A DNA stretch of 64,000 nt, taken from Candidatus Iainarchaeum sp. Its GTDB lineage: Archaea; Iainarchaeota; Iainarchaeia; Iainarchaeales; JACQJH01. Positions 532-52,943 of this stretch are shown one piece after another. The translations under genes and the position numbers were made by a program. The notes beneath the pieces were generated by a model. The model was given only the letters and a program-made list of their open reading frames with translations. It was not told where the DNA came from and ran no database searches. Numbering within the stretch: position 1 is the first letter of the stretch; every line of letters begins with the position of its first letter. The stretch spans positions 451,501 through 515,500 of the forward strand of contig JACQJH010000001.1 in assembly GCA_016205145.1 (NCBI GenBank), given 5' to 3'.

Positions 532-589
532 GTTTCTGCAAAAATATCTGTTAAAAACTTTAAAATAATTTTTGGAAAGGGGGAGTTTG

Positions 590-1420
590 ATGACAAAACT
601 TGGGGAAATGGACGCAAAATCTTCTGCGCAGATTCCAAACAGCTTGGTTCTCGCGGCAAGCATATTTATTTCGGCGCTGATTTTATCGGCATCTGTCCTG
701 ATGGTGGGCAATTCCATTACAACTGAAATTTCAAAGCTTTCAGGCCTGGCGCTTGCGCCGGCAAATGCAGGCGGAACAGGAACCCAAGAGCAAAACGTTC
801 CTTCGCCCGCGCAGGCTGCGCCTTCTCCTGAGCCGGCGGCGCCCGAAATTTCGCTGAAAACGGTTTCAGGCAATGCAGCCGGAGTCATGGGCGAGGACAA
901 TGCGCCGGTTACAATCGTGGAATATTCCGATTTCCAGTGCCCGTTCTGCAGGCGCCATTACACTGAAACGCACCAGCAGCTGATAGACAATTACGTGAAG
1001 ACCGGCAAGGCAAAGCTTGTTTTCAAGGATCTGCCTTTGGACTTCCATCCTTCGGCTTCAATGGCCGCGAACGCGGCAAGGTGCGGCGCGGAGCAGGGAA
1101 AGTTCTGGGAAGCGCATGACGCAATCTTTGACATGCAGCAGGCAAAGGATCCCAGCGGGGGAACCGTGCAGTTTTCTGCGCAGGACGTCAAGGATGCCGT
1201 CGCGAAGATTTCCGGAATCGACGCAACAAAGTTCAATTCGTGCGTTGACAGCAGCAAGTATGCAAGCGATGTGAAGGCAAGCTACACCGAAGGCTTTTCC
1301 ATCGGCATAAACGGCACGCCGAGCTTTGTCATCGGACCGACGGACGGCAAGGGCCAGATTGTCGTTGGGGCGCAGCCTTTCGCGACATTCAAGGCGGTCG
1401 TAGACGGGTATTTGGGCTGA
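590..1420 (+). CDS. DsbA-like thiol:disulfide oxidoreductase. It has an N-terminal TM anchor and a Pro/Ala-rich linker.
   Basis: The motif FQCPFCRRHY is a CxxC in DsbA/thioredoxin-fold context. A GGGGG RBS precedes the ATG at 590. The ORF-track start at 572 is an alternative. Confidence 0.75.
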   Translation: MTKLGEMDAKSSAQIPNSLVLAASIFISALILSASVLMVGNSITTEISKLSGLALAPANAGGTGTQEQNVPSPAQAAPSPEPAAPEISLKTVSGNAAGVMGEDNAPVTIVEYSDFQCPFCRRHYTETHQQLIDNYVKTGKAKLVFKDLPLDFHPSASMAANAARCGAEQGKFWEAHDAIFDMQQAKDPSGGTVQFSAQDVKDAVAKISGIDATKFNSCVDSSKYASDVKASYTEGFSIGINGTPSFVIGPTDGKGQIVVGAQPFATFKAVVDGYLG

Positions 1421-1465
1421 AACCCAAATACCCCACTTTCTTTCTTTTCATTTTTTTGCGGGCTG

Positions 1466-2017
1466 GTGCAATTGGATTTTTTTGATTCCATGAACGCGAA
1501 AACCGCGCATCTTTCCAGAGCTTTCCGCATTGTGTTTTCCCGGCCCAAATATTCGCTTCTTGCCATTTTTCTTGCCATGGCTCTTTTTTTGGGTGTAAAC
1601 TTTCTTGTCAACTGGCGCCTGCTTTCGGGTTTCGTGCTTGGAAACTTTCCGCTGTCAAACAAAATCACGGTCCTTTCCGGATTAGCGCAGGGAAGCCTGC
1701 TAAACAACACGACTGAAACTTTTTTTTCCTTCGCCGTCGTGTCATTGCTAATCGGCGTGAACGTTTCGCTTTTCGCCTATCGCATCAGGCATTCGGGCTT
1801 GGACAAAAAGGCGGGCGCGAGCGGCATTCTGGGCGGGTTTTTCGGGCTGTTTGCCGCGGGCTGCACGGCCTGCACGCTTTCGCTTGTGGCATTTTTCGGT
1901 TTCGCGGGATTGTTTGCGCTGCTGCCTTTCAGGGGCTTTGAAGTGTGGGCATTGGGAATCGCGGTCCTCATGTTGAGCATTTACTGGAATTCGAAAAGCA
2001 TCTGCGGAGTCTGCTAG
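1466..2017 (+). CDS. Small polytopic membrane protein with an intramembrane CxxC (AAGCTACTL) and a C-terminal CGVC. It may be a DsbB/VKOR-like partner of the adjacent DsbA-like protein. This is paralog 1 of 3.
   Basis: Several hydrophobic helices, with a CxxC inside a helix. Paralogs occur at 6747 and 9725. The start is GTG 1466 or ATG 1490. Confidence 0.45.
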   Translation: MQLDFFDSMNAKTAHLSRAFRIVFSRPKYSLLAIFLAMALFLGVNFLVNWRLLSGFVLGNFPLSNKITVLSGLAQGSLLNNTTETFFSFAVVSLLIGVNVSLFAYRIRHSGLDKKAGASGILGGFFGLFAAGCTACTLSLVAFFGFAGLFALLPFRGFEVWALGIAVLMLSIYWNSKSICGVC

Positions 2018-2029
2018 CAGTTCGGGGGA

Positions 2030-2596
2030 ATGCGCATGGGCCTGACAAAACACGAAAGGAAACAGCTGAAAAAAACGGAACGGCTTGAAAGCGAAAGGAC
2101 CCTTGGCGAAAAAAAGCGGAAGGAAAATTTCCTGAAAAACGCGGGCATGGCAATCCTTGCAATCGCGGTTGTCGCGGCAATCGCCTTTTTTGCGTTGCAG
2201 GCAAATGCCAACAGGCCCAAACTGGACACGCGCGGCATTTCCTTTCCGTTGGTGAACGTGCACTGGCACGCCACGCCCCGCATTTTTTTGTGCGGCGGGG
2301 AAAAGTTGATTCCGACGCCGCCTGAAACAAATCCTTTGCTGCACACGCATGAGGACAGGCTCATCCACATCGAAGGCAGCGTTTCCGGGCCGGAGCAGAT
2401 AACCCTGGAAAGGTTTTTTGACGGCATCGGCATAAAGTTTTCTTCAACCGGAATCTGGGGCAAAAGGAACGGCGACACCTGCGAAAACACGGGCAAGGCG
2501 GGAAAGGTTTCAATGAAGGTCAACGGTTCCGCAAACACTGAGTTCCAGAATTTTGTGCCAAAGGACGGCGACGTGATAGAAATTCGTTTTGAATAG
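2030..2596 (+). CDS. Membrane-anchored His-rich protein of unknown function (HWHATP...LLHTHED).
   Basis: One N-terminal TM helix. The extracytoplasmic domain carries clustered His residues. It sits inside the metal island. Confidence 0.4.
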   Translation: MRMGLTKHERKQLKKTERLESERTLGEKKRKENFLKNAGMAILAIAVVAAIAFFALQANANRPKLDTRGISFPLVNVHWHATPRIFLCGGEKLIPTPPETNPLLHTHEDRLIHIEGSVSGPEQITLERFFDGIGIKFSSTGIWGKRNGDTCENTGKAGKVSMKVNGSANTEFQNFVPKDGDVIEIRFE

Positions 2597-2606
2597 GCGT
2601 TGTGAC

Positions 2607-2801
2607 ATGAATAAAGTGAAACAAACCGCGTTGTTCACCTGCCCGGAATGCGGCGCAAAATCGGAAATAGCGGTTCCAACCGGCAGGTGCCTTGCCTTTC
2701 ACGAATGCGTGGCATGCCATAAAATCATCGCGGCAAAAAAATCCTGTTGCGTCATCTGCGACTACTCCGACAAGAAGTGCCCTGTTTCAGCAAAACACTG
2801 A
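2607..2801 (+). CDS. Small Cys-rich (about 10 Cys in 65 aa) zinc-ribbon-like metal-binding protein.
   Basis: The pattern is CPECG...CLAFHECVACH...CCVICDYSDKKCP. ATG is at 2607. The ORF-track TTG start at 2589 overlaps the upstream stop. Confidence 0.4.
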   Translation: MNKVKQTALFTCPECGAKSEIAVPTGRCLAFHECVACHKIIAAKKSCCVICDYSDKKCPVSAKH

Positions 2802-2864
2802 CTGGCCGCACTTTTGATTGTTTGGCTTTTTTTTGGCGCTCAGGGGCTGTTCCGCTTTTTCCAC

Positions 2865-2911
2865 ATGGTTTCAACAACGGTTATCTATGGTTTCAGCCGC
2901 ATTGTTTGCAT
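2865..2911 (+). promoter_or_regulatory. Conserved 47-nt promoter/operator motif, copy 1: GGTTTCA-n12-TATGGTTTCAGC-n7-TTTGCAT.
   Basis: It is nearly identical to 9181-9227. It contains a TATA-like TAT.TATGG and lies 42 nt upstream of the GGAGG-preceded ATG at 2953. Confidence 0.5.
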
Positions 2912-2952
2912 CAGAGCCTGATTCAGGCAATGTTTTTGCGGAGGAGACGGAA

Positions 2953-3630
2953 ATGCAGGGTTGTTGCGGGGAAGGGCACAAGTCCGGTTCCCATAAGTCT
3001 GGTTCGGCTGGCCAGCAAGCGGAATTCAAAACCAGTGCCGGCGGCAAAAAGCTGGGTTTTGGAAAAACCGCATTGACTGTGGTTTTGGCCTTGGCTGTTG
3101 TAGCAGGACTGCTGTTTTTCCTTCGCCCCGGCTCGACTGGACAGGTGTCCGCAACCGCGACGGGCAATACTGTCGGTGCTGTGGCGCCGGGTTTTGAGTT
3201 GAAGGACATTGCCGGAAACAGCGTGAAGCTGAGCGATTTCAAGGGCAGGGCTGTCATACTTTTTTTCAACGAGGGCGGAATGTGCTATCCTTCGTGCTGG
3301 AACCAGATAAAGGCTCTGGCAACGGATGAAAGGCTTAACAACGAAAACGTGGCGTCTTTCTCCGTGGTGGTTGACAACACTTCGGACTGGGAGAAAATCA
3401 CGGCTCACGTGCCCGGCTTTTCGCAGTCGGGCCTGCTCTTCGACACTTCAAAGGTTGTTTCGTCAAGTTACGGGGCGCTGAACATGCCGTCTTCGATGCA
3501 TGGCGGCATGATGCCGGGGCACACATATTATATCATCGGAAAGGACGGCAAAATAAAGTTCATTTTCGACGACCCGCAGATGGGCGTGAGGAACGACCTG
3601 CTTGCCGCTGAAATAGCAAAGCTGGTTTGA
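2953..3630 (+). CDS. Membrane-anchored thioredoxin-like (TlpA/redoxin family) protein with an N-terminal Cys/His-rich tail (MQGCCGEGHKSGSHKSGS).
   Basis: The active-site-like motif is GGMCYPSCW. There is a TM segment TALTVVLALAVVAGLLFF and a strong GGAGGAG RBS. The in-frame ATG at 2887 lies inside the conserved motif, so it was rejected as a start. Confidence 0.65.
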   Translation: MQGCCGEGHKSGSHKSGSAGQQAEFKTSAGGKKLGFGKTALTVVLALAVVAGLLFFLRPGSTGQVSATATGNTVGAVAPGFELKDIAGNSVKLSDFKGRAVILFFNEGGMCYPSCWNQIKALATDERLNNENVASFSVVVDNTSDWEKITAHVPGFSQSGLLFDTSKVVSSSYGALNMPSSMHGGMMPGHTYYIIGKDGKIKFIFDDPQMGVRNDLLAAEIAKLV

Positions 3631-3655
3631 CGGCTGGATTGTTTTTGGTGGTGGC

Positions 3656-4534
3656 GTGGGCGAACTGCTTTTAGGCGCGTCAATAATAACCGCTTTTGTG
3701 GCGGGAGTCGCGGCATTGTTCGCGCCGTGCTGCATTACCGTGCTCTTGCCCGCCTACCTCGGCTCGGTTTTCAGGCAGATGCGCACGGTTTTCCTCATGA
3801 CTTTCGTTTTCTTCCTGGGCCTGCTCGCGGTTTTCCTGCCGCTCGGCCTCGGCTTCGCGGCGCTCGGCGAAGCGTTCAGGCAGTTTCACGACGTCATTTT
3901 CGTCGGCGGAAGCGTTTTCCTCATAGTGCTTGGCGCCTCGATGCTTTTGGGAAAGCACTTTTCAATGCCATTTGCACCGCGCCCGTCTCCAAAAGTTACT
4001 GGTGCGGTTTCGGTTTTCGCGCTCGGCGTGTTCTCCGGCATAGCGACGCTTTGCTGTGCGCCCGTGCTTGCCGGAGTGCTGGCGCTTTCGATAATGCCGG
4101 GTTCGGTTTTCTGGGGCGGAGTCTACTCGCTGGCTTACGTGCTTGGCATGACGATTCCGTTGTTCGTAATTGCCTTCGCGCTTGACAAGTCGGATGCCCT
4201 TGAAAAAATCCGGCTGCTCAACAGGACCGTCGAATACGGCTTCGGCGGAGAAAAAATCAGCCTGCTTGCATCCGAAATGGTTGCAGCGTTGATGTTCATC
4301 GGAATGGGCTTGCTGACGATTTACTTTTTCATGACCGGGCAGCTTGCACAAAATTCCGGCTTCCAGGTTTCCACGAACGTGATGCTTGCAGGAGTGGCGG
4401 ATTTTGCCTCGAAGTATTTTTCGTGGGCACCGCCGGTTGCATTGGCGGGCGCGGTTGCGCTGATTTTGGCCGGCCTGGCGTTCATTGCCTTCAAAGAGAA
4501 GCATGGCCGGGGAAACGAAAAAAGGGAATCCTGA
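3656..4534 (+). CDS. ccdA: CcdA/DsbD-family transmembrane thiol-disulfide electron transporter.
   Basis: It has PCC and LCCAP motifs in TM helices (FAPCCITVLLPAYLG; IATLCCAPVLAG) and is polytopic. It has a GTG start. Confidence 0.8.
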   Translation: MGELLLGASIITAFVAGVAALFAPCCITVLLPAYLGSVFRQMRTVFLMTFVFFLGLLAVFLPLGLGFAALGEAFRQFHDVIFVGGSVFLIVLGASMLLGKHFSMPFAPRPSPKVTGAVSVFALGVFSGIATLCCAPVLAGVLALSIMPGSVFWGGVYSLAYVLGMTIPLFVIAFALDKSDALEKIRLLNRTVEYGFGGEKISLLASEMVAALMFIGMGLLTIYFFMTGQLAQNSGFQVSTNVMLAGVADFASKYFSWAPPVALAGAVALILAGLAFIAFKEKHGRGNEKRES

Positions 4535-9296: not shown

Positions 9297-9728
9297 ATGA
9301 ATGAGGTTAAAGTCCAGCGTGTTTTCCTGTTGCTTGTGTTAGGCGCCCTGGTCGTGTTCGGCGGAATGGTTCTGTTTTGGTTTGGCGCTAATGCAGCGCC
9401 CGCCAGATCGGCATCGGTAAATAATCAGGGTATTGTTGCCGGAGGGAACGGCCAGGCACAGGACATTTACATCAGGGCGCTTTCAAGCGGAACCTATGAC
9501 AAAAGCGAGGTCACGGTAAAGAAAGGCGTGCCGGTCAGACTGCATTTTTCCGCTGACCCTGGCGCGGGCTGCGGAAGGTATCTGGTGCTATACGGCCTGA
9601 ACGTCAATGCGCTTTCCAAGAACGGCGAAGAAGCGGTTGTCGACTTCACGCCGCAACAGGAAGGCAGCTTTGAATACAATTGCGGTATGAGAATGTTCAA
9701 ACCCGGAACATTGAAGGTTTTGGCATGA
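9297..9728 (+). CDS. Cupredoxin-like copper-binding domain protein with an N-terminal TM anchor.
   Basis: The beta-rich domain has Cu-ligand-like residues HFSADPGAGCGRY...YNCGMRMFKPG in a Cys...Cys-x-Met arrangement. Confidence 0.55.
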   Translation: MNEVKVQRVFLLLVLGALVVFGGMVLFWFGANAAPARSASVNNQGIVAGGNGQAQDIYIRALSSGTYDKSEVTVKKGVPVRLHFSADPGAGCGRYLVLYGLNVNALSKNGEEAVVDFTPQQEGSFEYNCGMRMFKPGTLKVLA

Positions 9729-11318: not shown

Positions 11319-13775
11319 ATGAAAAAAATCACAGTCGGCATTAAAGGCATGCATTGCGCTTCCTGCGCCACGATAATCGAGCGTCGCCTCAAAAAAGTTG
11401 AAGGCGTGAAGGATGTCTCTGTCAGCGTCGCGGCAAACAGGGCGGCGATCGAATTTGATGAGGGCATTGCGGGCATTGAACAGTTTGGAAAGGCAGTGGA
11501 AAGTGCAGGGTACGAACTCGTCCAGCCGCAGGGGCAGGATTCCGGCGATGCGAAGATAACAATGCATGTAAAGGGCATGGATTCGCCGCATTGTGCGGGC
11601 ATTGTCGGGAATGCGCTCAAGGGAACCGCTGGAGTGAAAAAATTCGACCTCAGCTTCCAGAATGCCTCGGCAATGGTTGAATTCGATGCCTCCATCACCG
11701 GCTTTGATAAAATAAAGGCTTCGATTGCAAGGGCAGGCTATGATGCGGAACTGCTTGTCGGGGAGGAAACAGTGGACCAGGAGAAGGCCGCACGCGATAA
11801 AGAAATCGCGGAATTGAAGCGCAGGCTCGTTTTTTCGGCATTGCTGACCGTGCCGGTTGTCCTGCTTGCATTGCCGGAAATGCTGAAAACTGTTATGGCA
11901 TTCGAGTACCCGCAGTTCATAATGCAGAACATGGCTGCATTGCAATTGCTGTTTTCAACGCCGGTGATGTACCTTAACAGGGACATGTTTGTGAGGGGCT
12001 TCAGGGGGCTGTTGAATAACATGCCGGGCATGGACAGCCTTGTCGCTTTGGGCGTCGGGACAACCTATGCTTACAGCGCAATCGTGGCCCTGCGCATCAT
12101 TGGCGGAGTCATGTATTTTGAAACCGCTGCTTTGCTTCTCACGTTCATATTGCTTGGCAGGTACCTTGAGGCGATTGCCAAAGGAAAGACTTCCGAGGCA
12201 ATCAAGCGCCTTGTAGGGCTTGCGCCGAAAACCGCAATCGTGGTCAGGGCAGGAAAAGAGGTTGAAATTCCGATCAAGGAAGTTGTTGTCGGGGACATTG
12301 TCATTGTGAAGCCGGGCAGCAAGATTCCGGTTGACGGCGTCATAGTCGAAGGCGAAAGCAGCATTGACGAGAGCATGATTACAGGGGAGAGCATGCCCGT
12401 GCACAAGCGAAAAAATGACATTGTGATCGGCGGGACAATCAACGGCAATGGCTCTTTCAGGTTCAGGGCGACAAAAATCGGCAAGGACACAATGCTTGCG
12501 CAGATAATCCGTTTGGTGGAGGACGCGCAGGCAAGCAAGGCGCCGATCCAGAAGCTTGCAGACACTGTCGCAGGCTATTTTGTGCACGCAGTAATAGTGC
12601 TTGCATTGCTTGCCTTCGCTTACTGGTATTTCGTGGCAGGCCAGCCGTTTCTTTTCGCGCTCACAATCCTTGTTTCAACGCTTGTGATTTCCTGTCCTTG
12701 CGCAATGGGCCTTGCAACCCCGACAGCGGTCATGATTGGAACCGGCAAGGGCGCCGAGAACGGCGTGCTCATAAAAAACGCGGAGAGCCTTGAAATCCTG
12801 CATCAGGCCAAAACCTTTGTGTTCGACAAGACCGGCACAATCACCATGGGAAAGGCGTCGGTAACGGAAATCGTTCCGGTCGGAATCAAGGCAGCCGACC
12901 TTCTTTGCCTTGCGGCTTCCGCGGAAAAGAATTCCGAGCATCATTTAGCGCAGGCAATCGTGAAAAAGGCGAAGGAATCGAGGCTGAAAATTGCAGAACC
13001 GAAATCTTTCAAGGCGATTCCGGGGCATGGCGTCGAGGCAAAAGTCGGGGCGAAGAATGTTCTCATCGGAACTGTTGTCCTGATGAAAAAAAGCGGGGTC
13101 CGGATCGGAAACGATTTGGTTGGCAGGATGCAGTCGCTTGAAGAGCAGGGAAAAAGCGTTGTCCTTGTTTCGTCGGACGGAAAGCTTGTGGGAATGGTTG
13201 CGATTGCCGACACCATAAAAGAGCATGCTGCCGAGGCTGTAAGGCAATTGCAGGCAATGGGTTATGAAACCGTCATGATAACCGGCGACAATTCCCGCAC
13301 TGCAAACGCGATTGCAAAGCAGGCAGGCATTTCAAGGGTGCTGGCGCAGGTGCTTCCGTCGGACAAGGCCGCGGAAGTCAAGAAATTGCAGTTGAACGGA
13401 AGAAAGGTTGCCTTTGTCGGCGACGGCATAAACGATGCCCCGGCCTTGGCGCAGGCCGACATTGGAATCGCGATTGGCAGCGGCACCGACGTTGCGATTG
13501 AAAGCGGCGGAATAGTTTTGGTGAAAAGCGATTTGCGCGACATTGTGACGGCGGTAAAGCTTAGCAAATACACTCTCGGCAAAATAAAGCAGAATCTGTT
13601 CTGGGCTTTCGGCTACAATGCGGTCGGCATTCCGCTCGCGGCAGGCGCATTCTATCCTTTCACCGGCTGGCTTTTGTCGCCGGTCATAGCCGGAGCGGCA
13701 ATGGCTTTCAGCTCGGTAAGCGTTGTTTCGAACAGCCTGCTCATGCGCGGATGGAAACCGGATAAAAAGGTTTGA
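11319..13775 (+). CDS. copA: Copper-translocating P1B-type ATPase CopA with two N-terminal HMA domains.
   Basis: It has GMHCASCA and GMDSPHCA motifs, an [14 protein letters not shown] motif, DKTGTIT, and GDGINDAP. Confidence 0.92.
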
Positions 13776-21778: not shown

Positions 21779-24700
21779 TCAGTAGATTATTTCCTTGCCT
21801 TTCATCGCGTCCAGGAAAATCGTGCGGTTCTTTCCGTCATAGCTTTTCAGCCTTCCCTCGTATGCCGGCATGTAAACGGTTTCGATTTTTTTGACGACGA
21901 TCTTGCTCCACAGCCTTTTCAACGATTCCGCCGCCTGTTCCTTTGAAACGCGCGGGGCCTCGATTGCCACGGATTCCTGCTGTTTCAATGGCAGGCCGTG
22001 CAGCGAATTCATTATGGGGTGCAGCGGGTTTGCGGGCAAATCAACGCTCTCGTTTAGCCTGAAGGAAGTTTCATTGTTCGCGGTTTCAATTTTGATTATG
22101 TTCTTGTCCGCGAGGCTTTTCAGCAGCCTCCTGAGCCTGGCCTCGTCCATGCCGGTTTTCTGCATCAATGCTTCCAGGCCGGCCTTATCCTTTTTGAGAG
22201 CGTTGAAGAGAATCGCCTCGTTTTCGTTCAGCTGCGAAAATTCCTTGAATCCGCGTGACTCCAAAAACTCGTTTCCGGCATAGTGCAGGAATTCGCCGCT
22301 CAGGGAATTGACGTATGCCTCGCCGACATTGAAAATTTCCTTGGAGCCGAAATAGTTGAATTTGAACGCGAAAACGGGAATGAATTTGAGGTAAACGCTT
22401 TCCAGCATCTCCTCCTTTCCGAAAAATCCCAAAAACTTTTTTTGCCGCATGGCATTGAACGCTTTTCTCGCGGCTTCCTCATTGACCTGCACCGGAAACG
22501 CGAGCAGTTCCGGCGGTTCCTGCACTCCGGCTGCGGTTTCAGGTTTCGGCGCCTCTTCCTTCAAAACCTTCTTTTCGATTTCCTCCGCCTTTCTTGTCGC
22601 CTCTTCGAGCTTTTTCTCCATTTCCTCTTCGTAGCCGGGCACGCTCACGGTCTGCTTTTCGGAGTCAAATTCTATTCCCTTGCGGTCGAGCTGTTCCATT
22701 ATGTCCGATGGTTCAATGTTCGCCTTGAACTTGTTGTTGACAGTGTTTATGATCTGGCGGATTTTTTCAAGCTCAATCACGCCTTCCTTTTCAATTTTGG
22801 CGAGGCACATTTCCAATGCAAGCTTTTTCGCCTTCTCCGGATCCAGGTCCTTCGACAGTTCTGCGGTTTCAGCTTCCCTGCCTTCGTGCTGTGACATTCT
22901 CGGCCTGACCCTCATTACGAACGCCCTGCTTGTCTCCTCGCGCCTGTCGCCGGTAAGCGCGGTTCCAACGGGAAGCGTTTTGATGAACGTGGGCTTCCTG
23001 AATTTTTTTGGAATCAGGGTGGGAGTCCTCTTGAAAACGGATTTTATGTCGTCGTCGAAGACAAGCTTGTGCGTCATTATTATGTCAAGCTGTGACAGCA
23101 CGTGCGAGTCGATTGCAGACGGCTGTTGTGTTGCGAAGACAAGCGAGCAGCCGGGCTGGCGGCCCTGCTTCACATATTCTATGAGCGAAGTTGTCGCAGG
23201 CGTCTTGACGTTTCCGCTCGGAATGAGCGTATGCGCCTCGTCTATGAACAGCCATGTCGGCGGAATCTCAAGCTCCATCATTTCATCCGCATCAACAGTC
23301 TTGTGCCTGCTAGCCGCCTCACGCCTTGTGGTTTTTTTGCGCGCTGCAAGAATGCGCCTGCCAAGAATGCCTATGACCAGCGCGGAAACATTGTCCTCAA
23401 GGAAAGAGGTGTCGATGATTGTGAGCTGGTTTTCCATGCTCAGTTCGCCCAGAGGTGTGCCCTTATCGGAGAAAACGCCCCAGTTTTTTGCGGCGTCAAA
23501 CCTTGAAACCAGCGCCCTGATAGAATCGGGCTTGTAGCCCTTGTCCGAGGAATGCAGTTCCTTGTCGTTTTCAAGGCAGTTTATCAGGTCGTCAAGCGTG
23601 TAATTGCCTTTTTTTCCCGCAATTTTCGGTCCTTCCTTCTGCTCGTAGCCGCTTCTCACCTTTGAAATGACCTTTTCTATGAGCAGGCCGCTCGGCGAAA
23701 ACCTTTCAATGCCGAATGTGAGGCACCAGTCGTCGGTTGAAAGCAATGAGGCGTGCATGGAAAACGTCGCGTCAAACGTTCCGCCCGGCACCTGGTCCTT
23801 GACTCCCGCAGGAATGAATACCTTGAGGTTGTCCAAACCCTGCGGTGTCAGATCCCATTTTGCAAGCATGCCAATTTCCCTTTCATCCTTGTTCGGGAAC
23901 CTCATCGACCAGAACACGCCGATGGGGTCTATCACGATTATGCCGACGTTCTTGTTTTTGTGCGCCAGCTCTTCCGCGAGAACGCCCAAAACGTAAGACT
24001 TTCCGGATCCGCGGGCACCGTTCACGAAAATGACGTGCGGGTTGAGGCTGTCCACCAATACATTGAAATCGTTGAGTTCGGAGTCCTGCACTTTTCCGAC
24101 AAACAGGCCGGCTTCCTCGCCGTACTTTTCAAACAACGACTTTTTCCTGCCGATGAACGCAATCTTTTTTTTCTCGTCAGACAATAAGCTGAGTTCGAAC
24201 CTGCCGCCTTCCTCGTCTCTCTCCTTCTCTTTCTCGGTTTTCGCCTCGACCGGGTTTGGCTTGTGCTGGTCGGAATAAATGTCCGCTTCGCGGATGCCGA
24301 CTTCCTTGTCGAACGGCAGGAGTTCATCCTTCTGCGCGTAAATGGATGCCTTCTCCAGAATGACGTCCTTTATCTGCTGCTTGTCCTCTTCCTCCAAGGC
24401 GATTTGTTCAAGCTCGTCGTTCATTTCAAGGTCGTCAGCTGCCTGCTTTTTGGCCTTGACTCCCGCCGCATCTAAATCCGTTTCCGCGCCTTTTCCCGCC
24501 CTGCCTTCGCCGGCAATGCCATTCCCGCTTTCCTTTGCCGCGGCGTTTTGGGCGGGTTTTTGTTTCGCCTGCCTTTTCCTTTTCACGCGCTTTTCATCGG
24601 GCGCCGCGCTTTCAATAACGGTTTCGTTTTCGAACCCGGCTTTTTCGGCCGGAACGCCTTTTCCTTTTTCCGCTGTTTCCGGCGCGTTTTCTTCTGTTAT

Positions 24701-24904
24701 GTTTTCGCCTTCTTCGCCCGCGCTTTTCGCCTTTTTTTCGGCTTTTTCCTTCAGTTCAATGGTCTTTTTCTTCCTTGCCTCGCGCGCCGCCTTGCGCTCG
24801 TTGCTTTCGCCCAAGACCTCGTCGAAAATGTCCTTGTCGTCCTCGACAAAAGAGGTCTCAATGACCTTCTCGTCATCGCTTTCGCTGGCTTCGGCTTCAG
24901 GCAT
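21779..24904 (-). CDS. Large (1041 aa) HerA/DUF87-type P-loop ATPase. It has a roughly 260-aa acidic/Lys-rich disordered N-terminus and a roughly 400-aa C-terminal extension containing wHTH-like segments.
   Basis: Walker A FVNGARGSGKS. Walker B with DEAH (LFIDEAHTL). A VFATQQPS sensor-like motif. The rest is low-complexity E/K-rich. Confidence 0.65.
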   Translation of the reverse strand: MPEAEASESDDEKVIETSFVEDDKDIFDEVLGESNERKAAREARKKKTIELKEKAEKKAKSAGEEGENITEENAPETAEKGKGVPAEKAGFENETVIESAAPDEKRVKRKRQAKQKPAQNAAAKESGNGIAGEGRAGKGAETDLDAAGVKAKKQAADDLEMNDELEQIALEEEDKQQIKDVILEKASIYAQKDELLPFDKEVGIREADIYSDQHKPNPVEAKTEKEKERDEEGGRFELSLLSDEKKKIAFIGRKKSLFEKYGEEAGLFVGKVQDSELNDFNVLVDSLNPHVIFVNGARGSGKSYVLGVLAEELAHKNKNVGIIVIDPIGVFWSMRFPNKDEREIGMLAKWDLTPQGLDNLKVFIPAGVKDQVPGGTFDATFSMHASLLSTDDWCLTFGIERFSPSGLLIEKVISKVRSGYEQKEGPKIAGKKGNYTLDDLINCLENDKELHSSDKGYKPDSIRALVSRFDAAKNWGVFSDKGTPLGELSMENQLTIIDTSFLEDNVSALVIGILGRRILAARKKTTRREAASRHKTVDADEMMELEIPPTWLFIDEAHTLIPSGNVKTPATTSLIEYVKQGRQPGCSLVFATQQPSAIDSHVLSQLDIIMTHKLVFDDDIKSVFKRTPTLIPKKFRKPTFIKTLPVGTALTGDRREETSRAFVMRVRPRMSQHEGREAETAELSKDLDPEKAKKLALEMCLAKIEKEGVIELEKIRQIINTVNNKFKANIEPSDIMEQLDRKGIEFDSEKQTVSVPGYEEEMEKKLEEATRKAEEIEKKVLKEEAPKPETAAGVQEPPELLAFPVQVNEEAARKAFNAMRQKKFLGFFGKEEMLESVYLKFIPVFAFKFNYFGSKEIFNVGEAYVNSLSGEFLHYAGNEFLESRGFKEFSQLNENEAILFNALKKDKAGLEALMQKTGMDEARLRRLLKSLADKNIIKIETANNETSFRLNESVDLPANPLHPIMNSLHGLPLKQQESVAIEAPRVSKEQAAESLKRLWSKIVVKKIETVYMPAYEGRLKSYDGKNRTIFLDAMKGKEIIY

Positions 24905-25016
24905 GGAAAAACCAAGCTATATTGTGTGTTTTCATATATTTATGTTTTCTCTGCCGCGGCAAGAATTCTTAAATATTAGTTAAGGTTTTAGTAGGTGGGG
25001 TTGTCAAGGTAATTGA

Positions 25017-26894
25017 ATGTCCGCGTTTTCTTCTGATGAAACGGGCCAAGTCCCGGTAGCCTTGAAATTGCTCGCCGTGCTTGCCATCATCGCGTTCGTG
25101 CTTGCCCTTGTTTCATTGGGCCGGAACGGGCAGGCAAACCTTGCGGGCCGGTTTGCCGGAGCGCAAGCCGATTTTGGCGGAACATGCCTGTTCGGGGATT
25201 TTTTCTGCTTTTCCGGATCAGGCGGGGCGCAGGATTCATTCGAAGGGGATTCGGCTGTTTCCGGTTCAGGTTTCGATTATGCAAATGAGCCGGGCATGCC
25301 GGAAGCCGGCGGCGGTTTTTATGGCGGCTATGATTCCGGCGCGGCGCCGGAAGATTTTGGCGCCGGCCCGGAAACGGGTTCGGACCCTGATTATGGCGGC
25401 CAAAGAGGCGCGCCTTCCGGAAGCGGACTGCCGGAAATTTACGGTTCGGTCCAGCCGGCCGGCAGTTTTGGTGGCGTGAACGCCGGAAAAAGCGTTCTTG
25501 ACAGGGAAAGGCCGCCCGTCAGGATGCCAAAAAACCTGCCCCAGTCATCCGAAAAATCCGGTCCGAAAGCTGTTGCGGCCTCTTTTGAAAAGTATTCCTC
25601 GGACTATCCGCCAGAATGCAAAGAGCATTGCCCGTCGGTCACGGTTTTCTGTTTGCCGGAAGGCCAACTTGCGGATGAATGCGGTGAAGGCGCCACTGCC
25701 TGTGCGGATGAGGCTTCCTGTGAAATCAGCCTGCTTGATTCGGCCTGCGGGTCTGCGGGAATAAGCTCTGGAACATATCCTGCCGGTGAAATCGAGGATA
25801 TTTTGAACGATGCCAAGGAAAAGTCCGCGCCAGGGCCAGATGAGGCGGAGGACATTTGCACGCTGGAACACGAATTCAGGCACATCTGCGACCCTGATGA
25901 CAGGCCGCCCGGTTCCCGCCAGCAATGCACCGAAGTTTATGCCGAAGTCTACGAGGACAAGTGCATGAACGACTTTGCCGAGGCGAACTGCGGCGAAAAC
26001 CAGAATTGGACCGATGAGCAGTGCGGCGACCTTTGCGGCAGAATAGAGTACGGCAATTATGTGCGCAAGTGGGATGACTGCATGTGCCAGAATGCGGTTT
26101 CGGCAGAGGGCAAGTACAGCACCGGTTCAACCGGCTCATCCGACTGCTGTTCTTGCATAAGCCAGTGCACGGCCTATGGCGATAATATGGCGATGCCGCA
26201 GGCATGCATTGACAAGGGCTTTGTCAACCAGAAGGACGCCCAAAGCGCGTGCGCCGGCATTTCAAAAGCGGGAAGCGGCCACGGCTGCGACTATTGGAGC
26301 AGTGACGAGCACGACGAAGCCCAGATTTTCGGCCAGTGCGGCGGCCCCGGCATCTTTCTCGGCTGCTGTTCCGGTTACCCTTCCGGGCAAAACCCGTGGC
26401 CGGGAAACAAATGCGAAAGCTGTGACGCGCTTTTGGCATTGCAGGTTCCTGTCGGCGACGACGGAAAAACAGACTATGCCCTGCTTAAAACGCAGAGGCT
26501 TGAGGCGGTTGCAAAAGCCTGCAATGGCGCTCCCGCCAATTTCGATTCCGAGTTCAAAGACGGTTCCGATGGGCAGATATTGGAAGTTTGCGTGGTCTGC
26601 AACGACCCGTGCCGGCCCTGCTATCAGCAGGCGGGCGGAACAACATCTTCATGTTTTCCGAAAGGGCCTGCAGGCACTTGCGCCCCTGAAAAGGATGATG
26701 CCGCGCTTTTGGGCTTGATCAAAAACATTGCAAAGGGCAGCGGAGTCTGCGCAAATCCTTTGACGGCTTATATGACAAGCATGCAGGCCGGCCCGTACTG
26801 CGGCCAGGCGTGCTGTGCCGACTATAGCTGCCCACTCCCAGAATATGGCAACACCACTCCAGGCATTGCCGGATGCGTGCTCTGCGATAGTTAA
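25017..26894 (+). CDS. Membrane-anchored, extracellular, extremely Cys-rich protein (about 60 Cys) with a Gly/Asp/Ser/Tyr-rich disordered linker.
   Basis: N-terminal TM LKLLAVLAIIAFVLALVSL. A GSG/GGY-rich region. Then a dense Cys domain ending GCVLCDS. It is divergent from the HerA-like ATPase gene. Confidence 0.5.
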   Translation: MSAFSSDETGQVPVALKLLAVLAIIAFVLALVSLGRNGQANLAGRFAGAQADFGGTCLFGDFFCFSGSGGAQDSFEGDSAVSGSGFDYANEPGMPEAGGGFYGGYDSGAAPEDFGAGPETGSDPDYGGQRGAPSGSGLPEIYGSVQPAGSFGGVNAGKSVLDRERPPVRMPKNLPQSSEKSGPKAVAASFEKYSSDYPPECKEHCPSVTVFCLPEGQLADECGEGATACADEASCEISLLDSACGSAGISSGTYPAGEIEDILNDAKEKSAPGPDEAEDICTLEHEFRHICDPDDRPPGSRQQCTEVYAEVYEDKCMNDFAEANCGENQNWTDEQCGDLCGRIEYGNYVRKWDDCMCQNAVSAEGKYSTGSTGSSDCCSCISQCTAYGDNMAMPQACIDKGFVNQKDAQSACAGISKAGSGHGCDYWSSDEHDEAQIFGQCGGPGIFLGCCSGYPSGQNPWPGNKCESCDALLALQVPVGDDGKTDYALLKTQRLEAVAKACNGAPANFDSEFKDGSDGQILEVCVVCNDPCRPCYQQAGGTTSSCFPKGPAGTCAPEKDDAALLGLIKNIAKGSGVCANPLTAYMTSMQAGPYCGQACCADYSCPLPEYGNTTPGIAGCVLCDS

Positions 26895-26959: not shown

Positions 26960-28657
26960 TTGCGAGAGTTATGCCAAGTGATTCACTTTGGGTTCGCGAG
27001 TGATTCTTCTTCTGTAAACCTGCATAGCTTTCAGCACGCAAAAAAAGGCTCAATCTGCCCAACATTCAAGACCGTCCAGACATCAAACAGTTTTGATGCA
27101 ACCGGGTTTTTCGCAAAACTCTCCGATTACGGCAGGAAGGAAAACTGCATTTTGTTTGAAAGCGCGGACATAGTCAAAAAGTACGGCGAGCACAGCATCG
27201 GCTCCTCTTCGCCCTGCCTGAAAGTTTCCGGAAAAGGCGCGAAATTCGGGATTCTTGCCCTCAATGCGACCGGCGAAAGGTTCCTGAAATTCCTCCACAC
27301 CCGCCTGGGCTTCTGTGACAGTGTCAAATTCGCTAAAACGAAAATCTCCGGCTCGCTCAAGCCGAAAGCGCAGGGCGTTTCCGAGGAGGAAAGGCTGAAG
27401 CTGAAAACGCACGCCGACATTCTGCGGCAGATTGCTTTCGCATTGAAGCCAGCCGGCTTGGCCGTGCCATTCCCTGCTTATGCCGGCTTGTTCGGCGCGA
27501 TTTCCTATGACTTCATAGACCAGTTCGAGTTCCTGCCGAAAAACAGGGCAGACCCGCTCAAGGACCCGGATTACGAACTGTTCTTCCTTGACAATTTGTT
27601 CCACTGCAACCATGCAAAAAAAACTCTCACTTTCGTGGCAAATGCCCTGCTCTTTGACGGCACGAAAAAAGAAATGGAAAATGAAAAAACGCGCTGCCTT
27701 GCGAAAATCGCGGAAATGGAAGCCGCGCTCGCAATGCCCCTGCCAAAAAAACGCAGGTTCAAAACGCGCGCCGGCAATGCGCAAAAAATGTCAACCGACT
27801 GCGCAAAAAAAGATTTCATCAAAACCGTTGAAAAGTGCAGGGAAAACATCCTGGCGGGCGACGTTTTCCAGATAGTGCCCAGCCGCACAAGCATCGTTCC
27901 CTATTCCGCCGAGCCGCTGGACATTTATTCCGAACTCAAAAAACTCAATCCCTCGCCTTACATGTTTTTCGTGAATGCGAAAAGCGGCATCCTGCTAGGA
28001 AGCTCGCCGGAAACGTTTTTGCGCGTGCAGGCAAAGAATGGCAAAGGCGGAAAGTATGAAAAATCCGTTGAAATCCGGCCGATTGCTGGAACGAGGCCGC
28101 GGGGCAAAACCGAAGCAGAGGACGCGGCCTTTGAAAAAGAACTCCTCTCCGATGAAAAGGAACTGGCCGAGCACACGATGCTGATCGACCTGGCGCGCAA
28201 CGACGTGGCACGCGTTTCGATTCCCGGCACAAGGCGCGTTGAAACTCCGTATCATGTCGAAAAGTATTCGCACGTCCAGCACATTGTTTCAAACGTTCTT
28301 GGCACATTGAAGCCGGAGCTTGACTGCCTGCACGCTTATCTTGCAAGCATGAACATGGGCACTTTGACAGGCGCGCCCAAGGTGAAGGCAATGGAGTTGT
28401 TGCGCCGTTATGAGAAGACAAAGCGCGGCTTTTACGGGGGAAGCGTTGCCTATATCACTCCATCAGGAGAGCTTGACTCCGCAATCGTCATCAGGAGCGC
28501 GAGGCTGAAAAACGGCAAGGCGTTTGTGCGCGCCGGCGCAGGCATTGTCTTCGATTCGGTGCCGGAAAAGGAATTCGATGAAACCGGGCGCAAGGCGCAG
28601 GCCTGCCTGAATGCAATCGAAAGCGCGAACAAAAAAGCCGGGGCGGCGGGAAAATGA
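26960..28657 (+). CDS. trpE: Anthranilate synthase component I.
   Basis: Motifs LLESA..., IRPIAGTRPRG, LIDLARNDVARV and GAPKVKAMEL. The start codon is ambiguous (TTG 26960 or GTG 26978). Confidence 0.88.
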   Translation: MRELCQVIHFGFASDSSSVNLHSFQHAKKGSICPTFKTVQTSNSFDATGFFAKLSDYGRKENCILFESADIVKKYGEHSIGSSSPCLKVSGKGAKFGILALNATGERFLKFLHTRLGFCDSVKFAKTKISGSLKPKAQGVSEEERLKLKTHADILRQIAFALKPAGLAVPFPAYAGLFGAISYDFIDQFEFLPKNRADPLKDPDYELFFLDNLFHCNHAKKTLTFVANALLFDGTKKEMENEKTRCLAKIAEMEAALAMPLPKKRRFKTRAGNAQKMSTDCAKKDFIKTVEKCRENILAGDVFQIVPSRTSIVPYSAEPLDIYSELKKLNPSPYMFFVNAKSGILLGSSPETFLRVQAKNGKGGKYEKSVEIRPIAGTRPRGKTEAEDAAFEKELLSDEKELAEHTMLIDLARNDVARVSIPGTRRVETPYHVEKYSHVQHIVSNVLGTLKPELDCLHAYLASMNMGTLTGAPKVKAMELLRRYEKTKRGFYGGSVAYITPSGELDSAIVIRSARLKNGKAFVRAGAGIVFDSVPEKEFDETGRKAQACLNAIESANKKAGAAGK

Positions 28658-29034
28658 CTGCAATTATTAACCTGTCTTTTGATGAAGCTATGGCAGTTTA
28701 TGAGGAAGTCATGCTTGCAACGGATTCGAAACCGGCTGTCAGGATTTCCGGCACTTTGGAGCACATCCTGCTTTCATGCGAGAATTCGTTTAACGGCGAA
28801 AATGATGCCTTGTTTTTCAAGGCGGCTTTTTTGCTAAAGGAAATAATTTCAAAGCACCCTTTTATGGATGGAAACAAGCGCGGCGCTCTGGCCATAACCG
28901 ATGCTTTTCTGAGCCAAAACGGACAATTTTTGGAGTTTGAAAGGCAGGATGTGGCATTTTTGGAAGAAATAGACTTCAAAAAACTGCGGGTTGGCACGAT
29001 AAAAAAATTTTTGGAGAAAAAGGTGAAAGTCTAA
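28654..29034 (+). CDS. doc: Doc (death-on-curing)/Fic-fold toxin family protein.
   Basis: The KHPFMDGNKRGALA motif matches HPFx[DE]GNKR. The protein is 126 aa. Its ATG overlaps the trpE stop (ATGA). Confidence 0.7.
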   Translation: MTAIINLSFDEAMAVYEEVMLATDSKPAVRISGTLEHILLSCENSFNGENDALFFKAAFLLKEIISKHPFMDGNKRGALAITDAFLSQNGQFLEFERQDVAFLEEIDFKKLRVGTIKKFLEKKVKV

Positions 29035-29168
29035 TGGCTCGCCAAAACCTTGTAAATTTCAATGTTCCTTTTGACTACTTTGCGGGCAACTTTCCTGAAT
29101 TTTTCGTCAGCCATATTAATATCTCTGCGATAAGTGCATTTAAACATTTGCAGGCGGCGGGAAAATGA
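29034..29168 (+). CDS. 44-aa ORF bridging doc and the next gene, with overlapping stop/start codons at both ends.
   Basis: TAATG overlap with the doc stop and ATGA overlap with the downstream start. It is not in the ORF track because it is under 60 aa. The protein is MARQNLVNFNVPFDYFAGNFPEFFVSHINISAISAFKHLQAAGK. Confidence 0.3.
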   Translation: MARQNLVNFNVPFDYFAGNFPEFFVSHINISAISAFKHLQAAGK

Positions 29169-29965
29169 GCAGCAAACAAAGAACACCGGTTTCACCCACA
29201 AGCCGGCTGAGAAATTTGATAGCCGATTCTTATTTCAGGGCGTCTCCTCGTGCCAAAACGGATTTGCGCACGGGGCTGAGTGAAGGCCACGGAGGGAGTC
29301 ATCCGGATTATCCGAACAGGGGCGCAATGAATGTTTTTGAGGTAATTGATGATGGGAAACCGTTAAGGGGCATTAGGAAAAGTTTCCAATTGGCTCTGCG
29401 TCTTGTGGCTGATTTCCATGGCCGGCCGGCAACTGGCATTTTGAGAATGGGCAAAGCAGGAATAAGGCGCAAAGTTAGCGGCGAAGCGGCACATCTTCTT
29501 CCGGGGCACGGGCTTGCCGGGCCACAATTTGTTGAGCAGAAGATTTTTGAAAATGTTCCGCCCGACAAACTTGAGCTTTTCATTGATATTGCCAGAAAAA
29601 ATAAGGGCGAGCCGTTGGCGAGGTTTCTGGAACGTGAAACGGTTTCCGGAATATATTCTGATGAGGAACGGGCAGCCCTTTGCGAAGGGTTTCCGACCGT
29701 CGGCAGGCTTTTGGCGGCCGTAAGGGCCGGTTTGCTTGTAAAGCTGACCGAACAGGCGATAGTAGAACTTGCATATGCGCACAGAGTGCAACTTCCGAAA
29801 CCGTTTACTGGCAGGCCCCTAAAAACGCACGTGATTTTGGAATATCTTGCGCCAAAATATCCTTCGCGCGAGGCGATGATTGCCGACATTGAACGGGTTG
29901 TGCAAGAAATTCCCGGGTACCAGTTTGTTGCCGAACTGGAAAGAGTTGAAGGTGAAAAAAGATGA
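29165..29965 (+). CDS. Hypothetical 266-aa protein, translationally coupled upstream to the 44-aa ORF and downstream to trpG. It is not TrpF.
   Basis: ATGA overlaps at both ends. No recognised domain. Its composition is somewhat AT-shifted relative to the trp genes. Confidence 0.4.
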   Translation: MSSKQRTPVSPTSRLRNLIADSYFRASPRAKTDLRTGLSEGHGGSHPDYPNRGAMNVFEVIDDGKPLRGIRKSFQLALRLVADFHGRPATGILRMGKAGIRRKVSGEAAHLLPGHGLAGPQFVEQKIFENVPPDKLELFIDIARKNKGEPLARFLERETVSGIYSDEERAALCEGFPTVGRLLAAVRAGLLVKLTEQAIVELAYAHRVQLPKPFTGRPLKTHVILEYLAPKYPSREAMIADIERVVQEIPGYQFVAELERVEGEKR

Positions 29966-52640: not shown

Positions 52641-52824
52641 GCGGGGGTGGCGGAGTGGTCTAACGCGCCAGCCTGGAACTGCCCTTTCTTTTCTTTGAAA
52701 AAGAAAAGAAAGTGCAAGGTGCCCAAAGAAAAGAAAACGGGCCATTGCCCGGAAAAGGCGCTTTGCAAGGCACCAACAAGCTGGTTTCCGCAAGGAAGCG
52801 CGAGTTCGAATCTCGTCCCCCGCG
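52641..52824 (+). tRNA. tRNA-Ser (anticodon GGA), class II, with an approximately 100-nt intron.
   Basis: The exons are near-identical to the tRNA-Ser(UGA) exons. The anticodon loop is CUGGAA|A. The intron is 52679-52778. Confidence 0.75.
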
Positions 52825-52888: not shown

Positions 52889-52943
52889 TCAATCAGGCAA
52901 AAAGGCTATTAAGCTTTAGCAGAAAGAATTAATCTTACTCAAA

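What the first reader, a model, noticed from the sequence alone, without database searches (positions are those of the whole stretch)
25017..26894. 625-aa extracellular protein with about 60 cysteines and a long GSGG/GGY disordered stalk
Archaeal cytoplasmic proteins rarely use disulfides, so such an extreme Cys density points to a disulfide-knotted extracellular domain. Candidate roles are adhesin, toxin, or metal-binding scaffold. The C-terminus ends GCVLCDS.
Basis: seen in the sequence. Interest (0 to 1): 0.55.

Follow-up and report, generated by a model that had tools for sequence, protein, structure and literature searches.

The report
Disulfide-rich surface zinc protease candidate
This is a real gene of an uncultivated DPANN archaeon that encodes a membrane-tethered, very cysteine-rich surface protein whose conserved core carries the signature of a zinc-dependent protease and belongs to a rare family that no database describes.

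Summary
The ORF at 25017..26894(+) is real and encodes 625 aa, but it has 44 cysteines (7.0%), not about 60. A 96.5%-identical environmental variant gives pN/pS of about 0.12, and GC3 matches neighbouring genes, so it is not a GC-driven artefact.

The layout is:
- one N-terminal hydrophobic anchor (residues 14-34);
- an acidic Gly/Ser/Ala/Pro linker (35-199);
- a conserved 24-Cys domain (200-441);
- an orphan 18-Cys tail (442-625).

An exhaustive search of 1.84 billion representatives found 32 relatives. All but a near-identical fragment align only to about residues 181-464, mostly 195-435. Besides cysteines, the only invariant residues are H285, E286, H289 and E306. This is HExxH plus a Glu 17 residues downstream, the gluzincin-type zinc-peptidase signature.

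AlphaFold models are confident (pLDDT 89) and give a small sheet, a helix carrying HExxH and a second helix carrying the Glu. No Pfam, PDB-sequence or significant Foldseek match exists. The top Foldseek hits, selecase and deuterolysin, are zincins but not significant.

Cysteines are lost in pairs across homologues, and most homologues have signal peptides. A DsbA/CcdA cluster lies in the same window.

Best reading (about 0.6): a tethered extracellular zinc metallopeptidase of a new family.

The parts
24969..24976 (+). TATA-like box TTAAATAT, 41-48 nt upstream of the ATG, in the 112-nt divergent intergenic region shared with the HerA-like gene
   Evidence: Read directly from the sequence. A role as an archaeal promoter is inferred, not tested.
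25007..25010 (+). Shine-Dalgarno-like AGGT, 6 nt upstream of ATG 25017
   Evidence: Read from the sequence; inference.
25017..26894 (+). Complete ORF: 625 aa plus stop, 44 Cys, pI 4.2, net charge -50
   Evidence: The identical protein is encoded in Logan assemblies of SRR12113383 and SRR12113385. A 96.5%-identical variant, L092, gives pN/pS of about 0.12.
25062..25064 (+). Alternative in-frame TTG start (Leu16). It would give the N-terminus MKLLAVLAIIAFVLALVSL..., a canonical signal with a positive n-region.
   Evidence: Read from the sequence. Which start is used was not resolved.
25056..25118 (+). The only hydrophobic segment (residues 14-34, VALKLLAVLAIIAFVLALVSL): signal anchor or transmembrane helix
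   Evidence: Kyte-Doolittle scan: 19-residue window maximum of 2.97 at residue 14, and no other window above 1.6.
25119..25613 (+). Acidic low-complexity linker or 'stalk' (residues 35-199; G 21%, S 12%, A 11%, P 9%; 2 Cys)
   Evidence: It is not conserved in homologues, which carry other linkers such as PT-rich or GS-rich ones.
25614..26339 (+). Conserved 24-Cys domain (residues 200-441): the putative zinc metallopeptidase catalytic domain
   Evidence: 32 hits at E<=1e-3 among 1.84 billion representatives. All except the near-identical fragment P0001 align within query residues 181-464, mostly about 195-435. Alignments are A1-A4. AF2 model has pLDDT 89.5 and pTM 0.87.
25869..25883 (+). H285-E286-F-R-H289, the HExxH motif
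   Evidence: Invariant in all 27 aligned sequences. Exactly one HExxH occurs in each of 40 family members. It lies in predicted helix 75-91 of the model, which is residues 274-290.
25932..25934 (+). E306, the candidate third zinc ligand, in the motif C-x-E-x-x-A
   Evidence: Invariant in A1. It sits at the start of the next predicted helix. See the motif listing.
26340..26891 (+). Lineage-specific C-terminal domain (residues 442-625, 18 Cys, ends GCVLCDS). It contains CVVCNDPCRPC.
   Evidence: Its only homologue is the 98%-identical variant P0001. It has no internal repeat and no similarity to homologue tails. All of its Cys are kept in the variant.
572..4534 (+). Context, not part of the gene: a membrane-anchored DsbA-like oxidoreductase (572-1420, active site CPFC), a redoxin/TlpA-like protein (2818-3630) and CcdA/DsbD_TM (3656-4534)
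   Evidence: Pfam hits to Thioredoxin_4/DSBA, AhpC-TSA/Redoxin and DsbD_TM; translations. This shows the organism encodes extracytoplasmic thiol-disulfide machinery.

Best explanation
The gene encodes a cell-surface zinc metallopeptidase of a previously undescribed, rare family.

Proposed architecture and mechanism:
- An N-terminal hydrophobic helix anchors the protein in the archaeal membrane.
- An acidic, flexible Gly/Ser/Ala/Pro-rich linker of about 165 residues holds the folded part away from the membrane.
- A catalytic domain of about 240 residues, cross-braced by about 12 disulfides, binds one Zn2+ through H285, H289 and E306.
- E286 acts as the general base that activates the zinc-bound water for peptide-bond hydrolysis. 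This is the gluzincin mechanism.
- The 184-residue, 18-Cys C-terminal domain is specific to this lineage and most likely provides substrate or target binding.

What is shown:
- The gene is real and under purifying selection.
- The domain is conserved.
- H, E, H and E are the only invariant non-Cys residues, and they lie on two consecutive predicted helices that follow a small beta-sheet.
- Cysteines co-vary in pairs.
- Homologues carry secretion signals.

What is inferred: zinc binding, peptidase activity, outside orientation and the role of the tail.

The biological role is speculative. It could be extracellular protein degradation for peptide scavenging, or remodelling of a host or partner cell surface by a DPANN episymbiont.
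For: - Coding and selection: 22 synonymous against 10-11 non-synonymous differences to variant L092, 25 of 34 differences at codon position 3, and pN/pS of about 0.12. The two other frames give 3/28 and 4/27.
- GC3 is 0.62 against 0.638+-0.028 for 25 neighbouring genes.
- Family: 32 relatives at E<=1e-3, with the best distant one at 2e-27. All but a near-identical fragment cover only about residues 181-464.
- Invariant columns are H285, E286, H289 and E306 plus 10 Cys. The motif is HExxH-(12-26 aa)-C-x-E-x-x-A in every member, and each member has exactly one HExxH.
- AF2 with the family alignment gives pLDDT 89.5 and pTM 0.87. The model has four strands, then helices, with HExxH in helix 75-91 and the Glu at the start of helix 103-126. 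A truncated model reproduces this.
- The top Foldseek PDB hits of the core are zincins: selecase 4qhf, deuterolysin 1eb6 and the metal hydrolase 1tvi. The top BFVD hit is an IrrE-N-like peptidase. All are non-significant.
- Disulfides: Cys pairs 281/316, 291/378 and 340/424 are absent together in homologues. Cys counts are even in each segment (2 + 24 + 18).
- Secretion: 31 of 40 members have an N-terminal hydrophobic signal, mostly with a positive n-region.
- DsbA-like, redoxin and CcdA genes lie in the same window.
Against: - There is no statistically significant sequence or structure match to any characterised peptidase. Pfam gives none. The PDB profile search gives E>=0.4. Foldseek gives E>=0.79 and TM<=0.42.
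- With the ATG start, the N-terminal flank is acidic (-2) and the C-terminal flank of the helix is basic (+2). By the positive-inside rule this would put the Cys-rich part in the cytoplasm.
- There are no expression data.
- HExxH-containing domains also occur in non-peptidase or inactive proteins.
Confidence: 0.6

Rival explanations
1. It is a zinc-dependent hydrolase or binding module built on the same HExxH...E site, but it does not act on proteins. It might act on a glycan or lipid head group, or it could be a catalytically silent zinc-stabilised receptor-binding domain or adhesin.
For: No significant similarity to any characterised peptidase. The whole domain has no significant Foldseek match in the PDB at all. 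The large lineage-specific Cys-rich tail is compatible with a binding role.
Against: Strict conservation of the general-base Glu within HExxH in all members is typical of active hydrolases. From established knowledge of clan MA, HExxH plus a downstream Glu on the next helix is overwhelmingly a peptidase signature.
Confidence: 0.17
2. It is a secreted or surface metalloprotease used as a toxin or effector against a host or competitor cell. This is a sub-case of the best explanation in which the target is a foreign cell surface rather than nutrient proteins.
For: The organism is a DPANN archaeon, a group known for episymbiosis (plus general knowledge). The gene has no orthologue next to trpE in 80 related genomes. 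Its tail is lineage-specific. The family is rare and patchy across bacterial-type and archaeal contigs.
Against: No immunity gene, secretion-system gene or polymorphic-toxin architecture lies nearby. Its neighbours are a HerA-like ATPase and the trp operon. The N-terminal anchor suggests retention on the cell rather than release.
Confidence: 0.12
3. It is a metal-binding, metallothionein-like or Fe-S/Zn-cluster scaffold, possibly facing the cytoplasm. This covers the first reader's 'metal-binding scaffold' and the N-out/C-in topology suggested by flanking charges.
For: With the ATG start the charge distribution around the helix favours a cytoplasmic C-terminal part. The tail contains CVVCNDPCRPC, CESC and CVLC motifs. 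The window is rich in copper-handling genes.
Against: - Cys makes up 7-10%, not 20-30%, and is mostly isolated rather than in CxC/CxxC clusters.
- The core is a confidently predicted alpha/beta fold with aromatic residues.
- Cysteines are lost pairwise.
- Homologues have classical secretion signals.
- An alternative TTG start gives a canonical signal.
- There is no similarity to metallothionein or ferredoxin families.
Confidence: 0.05
4. It is not a functional gene: a chance ORF or a decaying pseudogene.
For: The first k-mer homology search returned nothing. The tail domain is an orphan.
Against: It is a 625-codon open frame with pN/pS of about 0.12 and third-position bias. Its GC1/2/3 pattern is native. 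The domain is conserved with E down to 2e-27. Identical copies occur in independent assemblies.
Confidence: 0.01

Closest known systems
Gluzincins (MEROPS clan MA(E), for example thermolysin M4 and neprilysin/ECE-1 M13)
   Same: HExxH lies on one helix, and a Glu on the following helix is the likely third zinc ligand. The Glu is followed at +3 by a small residue (ExxA), which resembles NExxSD / GENIAD (from memory). ECE-1 (3dwb) was the only peptidase to surface in the PDB profile search, aligned on HExxH (E 1.6, not significant).
   Different: There is no significant sequence or fold similarity. The His-to-Glu spacing of 17 residues is short. The domain of about 240 residues contains 24 Cys. 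It is not matched by any Pfam peptidase model.
Minigluzincins (selecase, projannalysin, proabylysin of Methanocaldococcus and Pyrococcus)
   Same: They are archaeal and have a compact sheet, an HExxH helix and a glutamate helix. Selecase 4qhf is the top Foldseek hit of the core model, and 4qhg is rank 18.
   Different: The match is not significant (E 0.79, TM 0.32-0.36, 7% identity). From memory, minigluzincins are soluble proteins of about 100 residues without a signal peptide or disulfides.
Deuterolysin / aspzincins (M35)
   Same: It is a small, secreted, disulfide-stabilised HExxH metalloprotease. 1eb6 is the second Foldseek hit.
   Different: The match is not significant (E 1.7). From memory, aspzincins use an Asp in a GTxDxxYG motif as the third ligand. 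This family instead has an invariant Glu in CxExxA.
Archaemetzincin (M54) and other metzincins (ulilysin, astacins, ADAMs)
   Same: Some are archaeal and/or cysteine-bearing zinc endopeptidases. ADAMs and leishmanolysin are membrane-tethered, disulfide-rich ectoproteases, which makes them functional analogues.
   Different: The extended metzincin motif HExxHxxGxxH/D is absent. Here the sequence is HEFRHICDPDD, the +3 position is Asp rather than Gly, and the +6 position is not conserved across the family (archaemetzincin motif as quoted in the abstract of PMC3427221).
Metallothioneins and small Cys-rich metal-binding domains
   Same: High cysteine content.
   Different: The Cys fraction is much lower and there are no CxC clusters. 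The protein has a large folded alpha/beta domain, pairwise Cys loss and secretion signals. There is no family hit.

Membership tests
Zincin / gluzincin metallopeptidases (clan MA-like) | HExxH motif located in an alpha-helix | tested here: met
   H285-E-x-x-H289 is invariant in 27 of 27 aligned sequences. Each of 40 members has exactly one HExxH. The motif lies inside predicted helix 75-91 of the model.
Zincin / gluzincin metallopeptidases (clan MA-like) | Third zinc ligand is a Glu on a helix downstream of HExxH | tested here: met
   E306 is invariant in A1 and is present, with a 1-residue register shift, in all sequences. It lies at the N-terminal end of the next predicted helix. Met at the level of sequence and secondary structure only.
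Zincin / gluzincin metallopeptidases (clan MA-like) | Zincin fold: significant structural similarity to solved zincin catalytic domains, with the three ligands converging on one site | tested here: inconclusive
Zincin / gluzincin metallopeptidases (clan MA-like) | Binds one catalytic Zn2+ and hydrolyses peptide bonds | not testable with these tools
   This needs biochemistry.
Any curated Pfam / NCBIfam-type peptidase family | Profile HMM match above the family threshold | tested here: not met
   There are 0 Pfam families for the query. None of the 27 members has a peptidase-family hit. At E<=10 there are only single-member weak hits to HExxH families (DUF6782 at 0.024, eCIS_core at 0.12, Peptidase_M91 at 0.25). 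NCBIfam was not run on the query or on family members, only on neighbouring genes of homologue loci.
Metzincins (including archaemetzincin M54) | Extended motif HExxHxxGxxH/D | tested here: not met
   The family consensus is HE[YFL]xH[LIA]CDP... There is no Gly at +3, and the +6 position is variable.
Metallothionein-like metal scaffolds | Very high Cys fraction in CxC/CxxC clusters, little regular secondary structure, sequence similarity to MT families | tested here: not met
   Cys is 7.0% overall and 10% in the domains, mostly isolated. The fold is confidently predicted as helical with a sheet. There is no family hit.
Extracytoplasmic disulfide-bonded proteins | Secretion signal or anchor plus paired cysteines | tested here: met
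   There is a single N-terminal hydrophobic segment. 31 of 40 family members have N-terminal signals. Three Cys pairs are co-lost, and Cys counts are even in each segment. The orientation of this particular protein is not proven, because the charge rule conflicts with it if the ATG start is used.

The most novel reading that the evidence does not exclude
This protein is the archaeal representative of an undescribed clan-level family of hyper-disulfide-bonded extracellular zincins, with about 12 disulfides in a catalytic domain of about 240 residues. The family would be exchanged horizontally between uncultivated bacteria and DPANN archaea and used to cut proteins on a partner cell's surface. 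The 184-residue, 18-Cys C-terminal domain would be a new fold that sets target specificity.
Probability: 0.2. Interest if true: 0.7.

Novelty: new variant of a known kind. Interest (0 to 1): 0.5.

Why it matters
If confirmed, it adds a new family to the zinc metallopeptidases, found so far only in metagenomic 'dark matter'. Its catalytic domain would be unusually dense in disulfides.

It would also give DPANN archaea a candidate surface enzyme. These organisms depend on other cells, and their surface biology is almost unknown. Such an enzyme could serve nutrient scavenging or host interaction.

The family alignment and the predicted disulfide pairs make the hypothesis directly testable by expressing the ectodomain.

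It is also a practical warning. Low-complexity linkers can blind k-mer-prefiltered homology searches, and the first search here missed even the query itself.

Tried and rejected
- A full-length k-mer/HMMER search found nothing, not even the query itself. The protein is nonetheless in the collection. Probably the 8000-candidate list was filled by low-complexity words; I did not test this.
- Synteny: tblastn of the protein against 80 trpE-centred loci from related archaea and Planctomycetota found no homologue. Contexts of family members are unrelated to one another.
- The PDB sequence searches, both single-sequence and profile, gave nothing significant.
- By eye, the C-terminal tail resembled the repeated 'CPPxYPxGP...C...CxxC' modules in the tails of P0002 and P0016. 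An HMM of those modules scored the query tail no better than shuffles, with 699 of 1000 shuffles scoring at least as well, so I rejected this. phmmer of the tail against all homologues was also non-significant, and there is no internal repeat.
- Literature searches found no description of this family.
- I considered horizontal-transfer composition signals. GC3 is native, so any transfer is not recent.
- I looked for an att repeat for the integrase region and found none.

Full report
**1. Observation**

The ORF is at exactly 25017..26894 (+). It encodes 625 aa and ends in ...GCVLCDS. It has 44 Cys (7.0%), not about 60. Eleven neighbouring genes have 0.4-1.8% Cys.

There is a single hydrophobic segment at residues 14-34. 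Residues 35-199 form an acidic low-complexity linker (G 21%, S 12%, A 11%, P 9%) with only three GSG and one GGY.

Cys counts are even in every segment. The linker has 2, residues 200-441 have 24, and residues 442-625 have 18.

**2. It is a real gene**

- The identical protein is encoded in Logan assemblies of SRR12113383 and SRR12113385. A third run, SRR12113384, carries the same neighbourhood.
- An ENA contig (L092) is 96.5% identical over 1022 nt.
- In the ORF's frame there are 22 synonymous and 10-11 non-synonymous codon changes, and 25 of 34 differences fall at codon position 3. pN/pS is about 0.12. The other two frames give 3/28 and 4/27.
- No cysteine is changed in the variant.
- GC3 is 0.62, within the 0.638+-0.028 of 25 neighbouring genes. 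The higher overall GC comes from GC2, that is, from amino-acid composition.
- A TATA-like TTAAATAT and an AGGT sequence precede the ATG.

The 'GC-driven artefact' refutation therefore fails.

**3. Organism and context**

The neighbouring TrpE is 54-64% identical to TrpE of MAGs whose records are titled Candidatus Iainarchaeum, Woesearchaeota, Nanoarchaeota or uncultured archaeon. It is 46-49% identical to Planctomycetota TrpE. Rfam reports a 184-nt tRNA match at 52641-52824, long enough to hold an intron.

The gene lies between a divergently transcribed 1041-aa HerA/DUF87 ATPase and the trp operon. None of 80 trpE-centred loci from related genomes has a homologue.

About 20 kb upstream, the window encodes three extracytoplasmic thiol-disulfide proteins:
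- a membrane-anchored DsbA-like protein with a CPFC active site;
- a redoxin/TlpA-like protein;
- CcdA/DsbD_TM.

Multicopper oxidase, cupredoxin and Cu-ATPase genes lie nearby.

**4. Homologues**

The first full-length search failed, even to find the query itself. The exhaustive HMMER scan of 1.84 billion representatives then found 32 proteins at E<=1e-3:
- one is a 98%-identical fragment;
- the other 31 are at 27-35% identity, with the best at 2e-27;
- their matches all fall within query residues 181-464, mostly about 195-435.

A metagenome scan added four loci. None of the 27 aligned members hits a Pfam peptidase family.

Contexts differ from locus to locus. Some are clearly bacterial: L088 has ribosomal protein S20, DNA polymerase III delta, a Mur ligase and FemAB, and L091 has F-type ATPase subunits. 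The family therefore spans both domains and is rare.

**5. The conserved core**

In the 27-sequence alignment the invariant columns are ten cysteines plus H285, E286, H289 and E306. The motif is CC-x-[ILV]-x-HExxH-(12-26 aa)-C-x-E-x-x-A. Every one of 40 family members has exactly one HExxH. HExxH with a Glu on the next helix is the zinc-binding and catalytic signature of gluzincin metallopeptidases (established knowledge of clan MA).

AlphaFold2 with the family alignment gives pLDDT 89.5 and pTM 0.87. A truncated model of the first 132 domain residues gives pLDDT 88.7 with the same elements. Both show:
- four short strands interleaved with helices;
- a helix at model residues 75-91 carrying HExxH;
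- a loop;
- a long helix that begins at the conserved Glu.

This order is compatible with a zincin N-terminal subdomain followed by a glutamate helix.

**6. Comparison with known structures and families**

- Foldseek of the whole domain against the PDB finds nothing with E<1.
- For the core, the best hits are selecase 4qhf (E 0.79), deuterolysin 1eb6 (E 1.7), TM1509 1tvi (E 4.0) and selecase 4qhg.
- In BFVD the top hit is an IrrE-N-like peptidase at E 1.1.
- A PDB profile search surfaces ECE-1, aligned on HExxH, at E 1.6.
- At E<=10, Pfam gives single-member weak hits that include DUF6782, eCIS_core and Peptidase_M91.

None of these is significant. Together they only show that the nearest things in structure space are zincins. 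The metzincin motif HExxHxxGxxH/D is absent. Membership in any described family is therefore not met, while the zincin signature is met.

**7. Disulfides and location**

Across homologues, Cys281/Cys316 (3 sequences), Cys291/Cys378 (9) and Cys340/Cys424 (4) are absent together, with 0-1 discordant sequences. Pairwise loss of this kind is expected of disulfide partners and not of metal clusters.

31 of 40 family members have an N-terminal hydrophobic signal or anchor, usually after Lys or Arg. Most of the rest begin inside the conserved domain and look N-terminally truncated.

The query's own N-terminus is atypical. With ATG 25017, the flank before the helix is acidic and the flank after it is basic, which by the positive-inside rule would point the wrong way. 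An in-frame TTG at 25062 would instead give MK-LLAVLAIIAFVLALVSL, a canonical signal. This point is unresolved and is the main caveat on 'extracellular'.

**8. The C-terminal domain**

Residues 442-625 have 18 Cys and contain CVVCNDPCRPC. No homologue exists other than the 98% variant, and there is no internal repeat. An apparent resemblance to the repeated tail modules of P0002 and P0016 did not survive a shuffle test. Purifying selection also covers this part. Its function is unknown; a targeting or substrate-binding role is a guess.

**9. Mechanism proposed**

The protein would be membrane-anchored, with a flexible acidic stalk of about 165 residues and then a disulfide-braced zinc peptidase. 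H285, H289 and E306 would hold the zinc, and E286 would act as the general base. The lineage-specific Cys-rich tail would follow. The enzyme would act outside the cell, either on environmental proteins or on a partner cell's surface.

I put this at about 0.6. The rivals are:
- the same site used for a non-peptidase or purely binding function (0.17);
- an effector or toxin use, a sub-case of the best reading (0.12);
- a cytoplasmic metal scaffold (0.05);
- a non-gene (0.01).

**10. Novelty and interest**

The kind of protein, a secreted zinc metalloprotease, is well known. The family is not described in Pfam or by any PDB sequence match, and two literature searches found no description of it. 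The density of predicted disulfides in a zincin catalytic domain is unusual, and the archaeal member has an orphan tail. I rate it a new variant of a known kind with moderate interest (0.5).

It overstated the Cys count and missed the catalytic motif.

Noticed in passing
window 572-4534, and on to 13775: A cluster of extracytoplasmic redox and copper genes. It comprises a membrane-anchored DsbA-like protein (CPFC), a redoxin/TlpA-like protein, CcdA/DsbD_TM, a multicopper oxidase (4965-6689), a cupredoxin (9297-9728) and a Cu P-type ATPase with two HMA domains (11319-13775).
   Followed up: partly
window 28654-29965: A small Fic-domain gene (126 aa, GC 0.42 against about 0.53) and an unannotatable 266-aa ORF sit between trpE and trpG, inside an otherwise contiguous trpE-G-D-C-B-A operon.
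   Followed up: no
window 52641-62615: Rfam finds a 184-nt tRNA match, long enough to hold an intron of roughly 110 nt, at 52641-52824. ARAGORN finds tRNA-Leu at 52944-53026. A tyrosine integrase follows at 53088-54209. After that come about 8 kb of low-GC (33-47%) ORFs, of which the eight largest scanned have no Pfam hit. This is probably an integrated element; no att direct repeat was found.
   Followed up: partly
window 48440-49150: An isolated 236-aa ORF with 30% GC lies in a region of about 53% GC and has no Pfam hit. It may be a small foreign insertion.
   Followed up: no
window 21779-24904 (-): A 1041-aa HerA/DUF87 ATPase with a highly charged Lys/Glu-rich N-terminal extension of about 250 residues and a long C-terminal extension. 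It is transcribed divergently from the target gene.
   Followed up: no
L035:4476-6002; L025:14355-15347; L039:17233-18321; L045:18998-20035: Other DPANN MAGs encode unrelated Cys-rich secreted proteins within about 6-9 kb of trpE. One is a 509-aa protein with an archaeal pilin-like N-terminus, an fn3 domain and thrombospondin type-1 repeats. There are also three ORFs of about 340 aa with about 10% Cys and signal-peptide-like N-termini (two with weak Dicty_CTDC hits); whether the three are related to each other was not tested.
   Followed up: partly
L088:12331-16118: In a bacterial-type contig, the family member P0006 lies within about 1 kb of a YcaO gene and two radical-SAM/SPASM genes, a RiPP-like cluster. 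The link may be coincidental.
   Followed up: no
tool behaviour: The k-mer-prefiltered homology search returned no hit for the full-length protein, not even the query itself. The exact sequence is nonetheless in the collection. Probably the low-complexity linker saturated the 8000-candidate list.
   Followed up: partly
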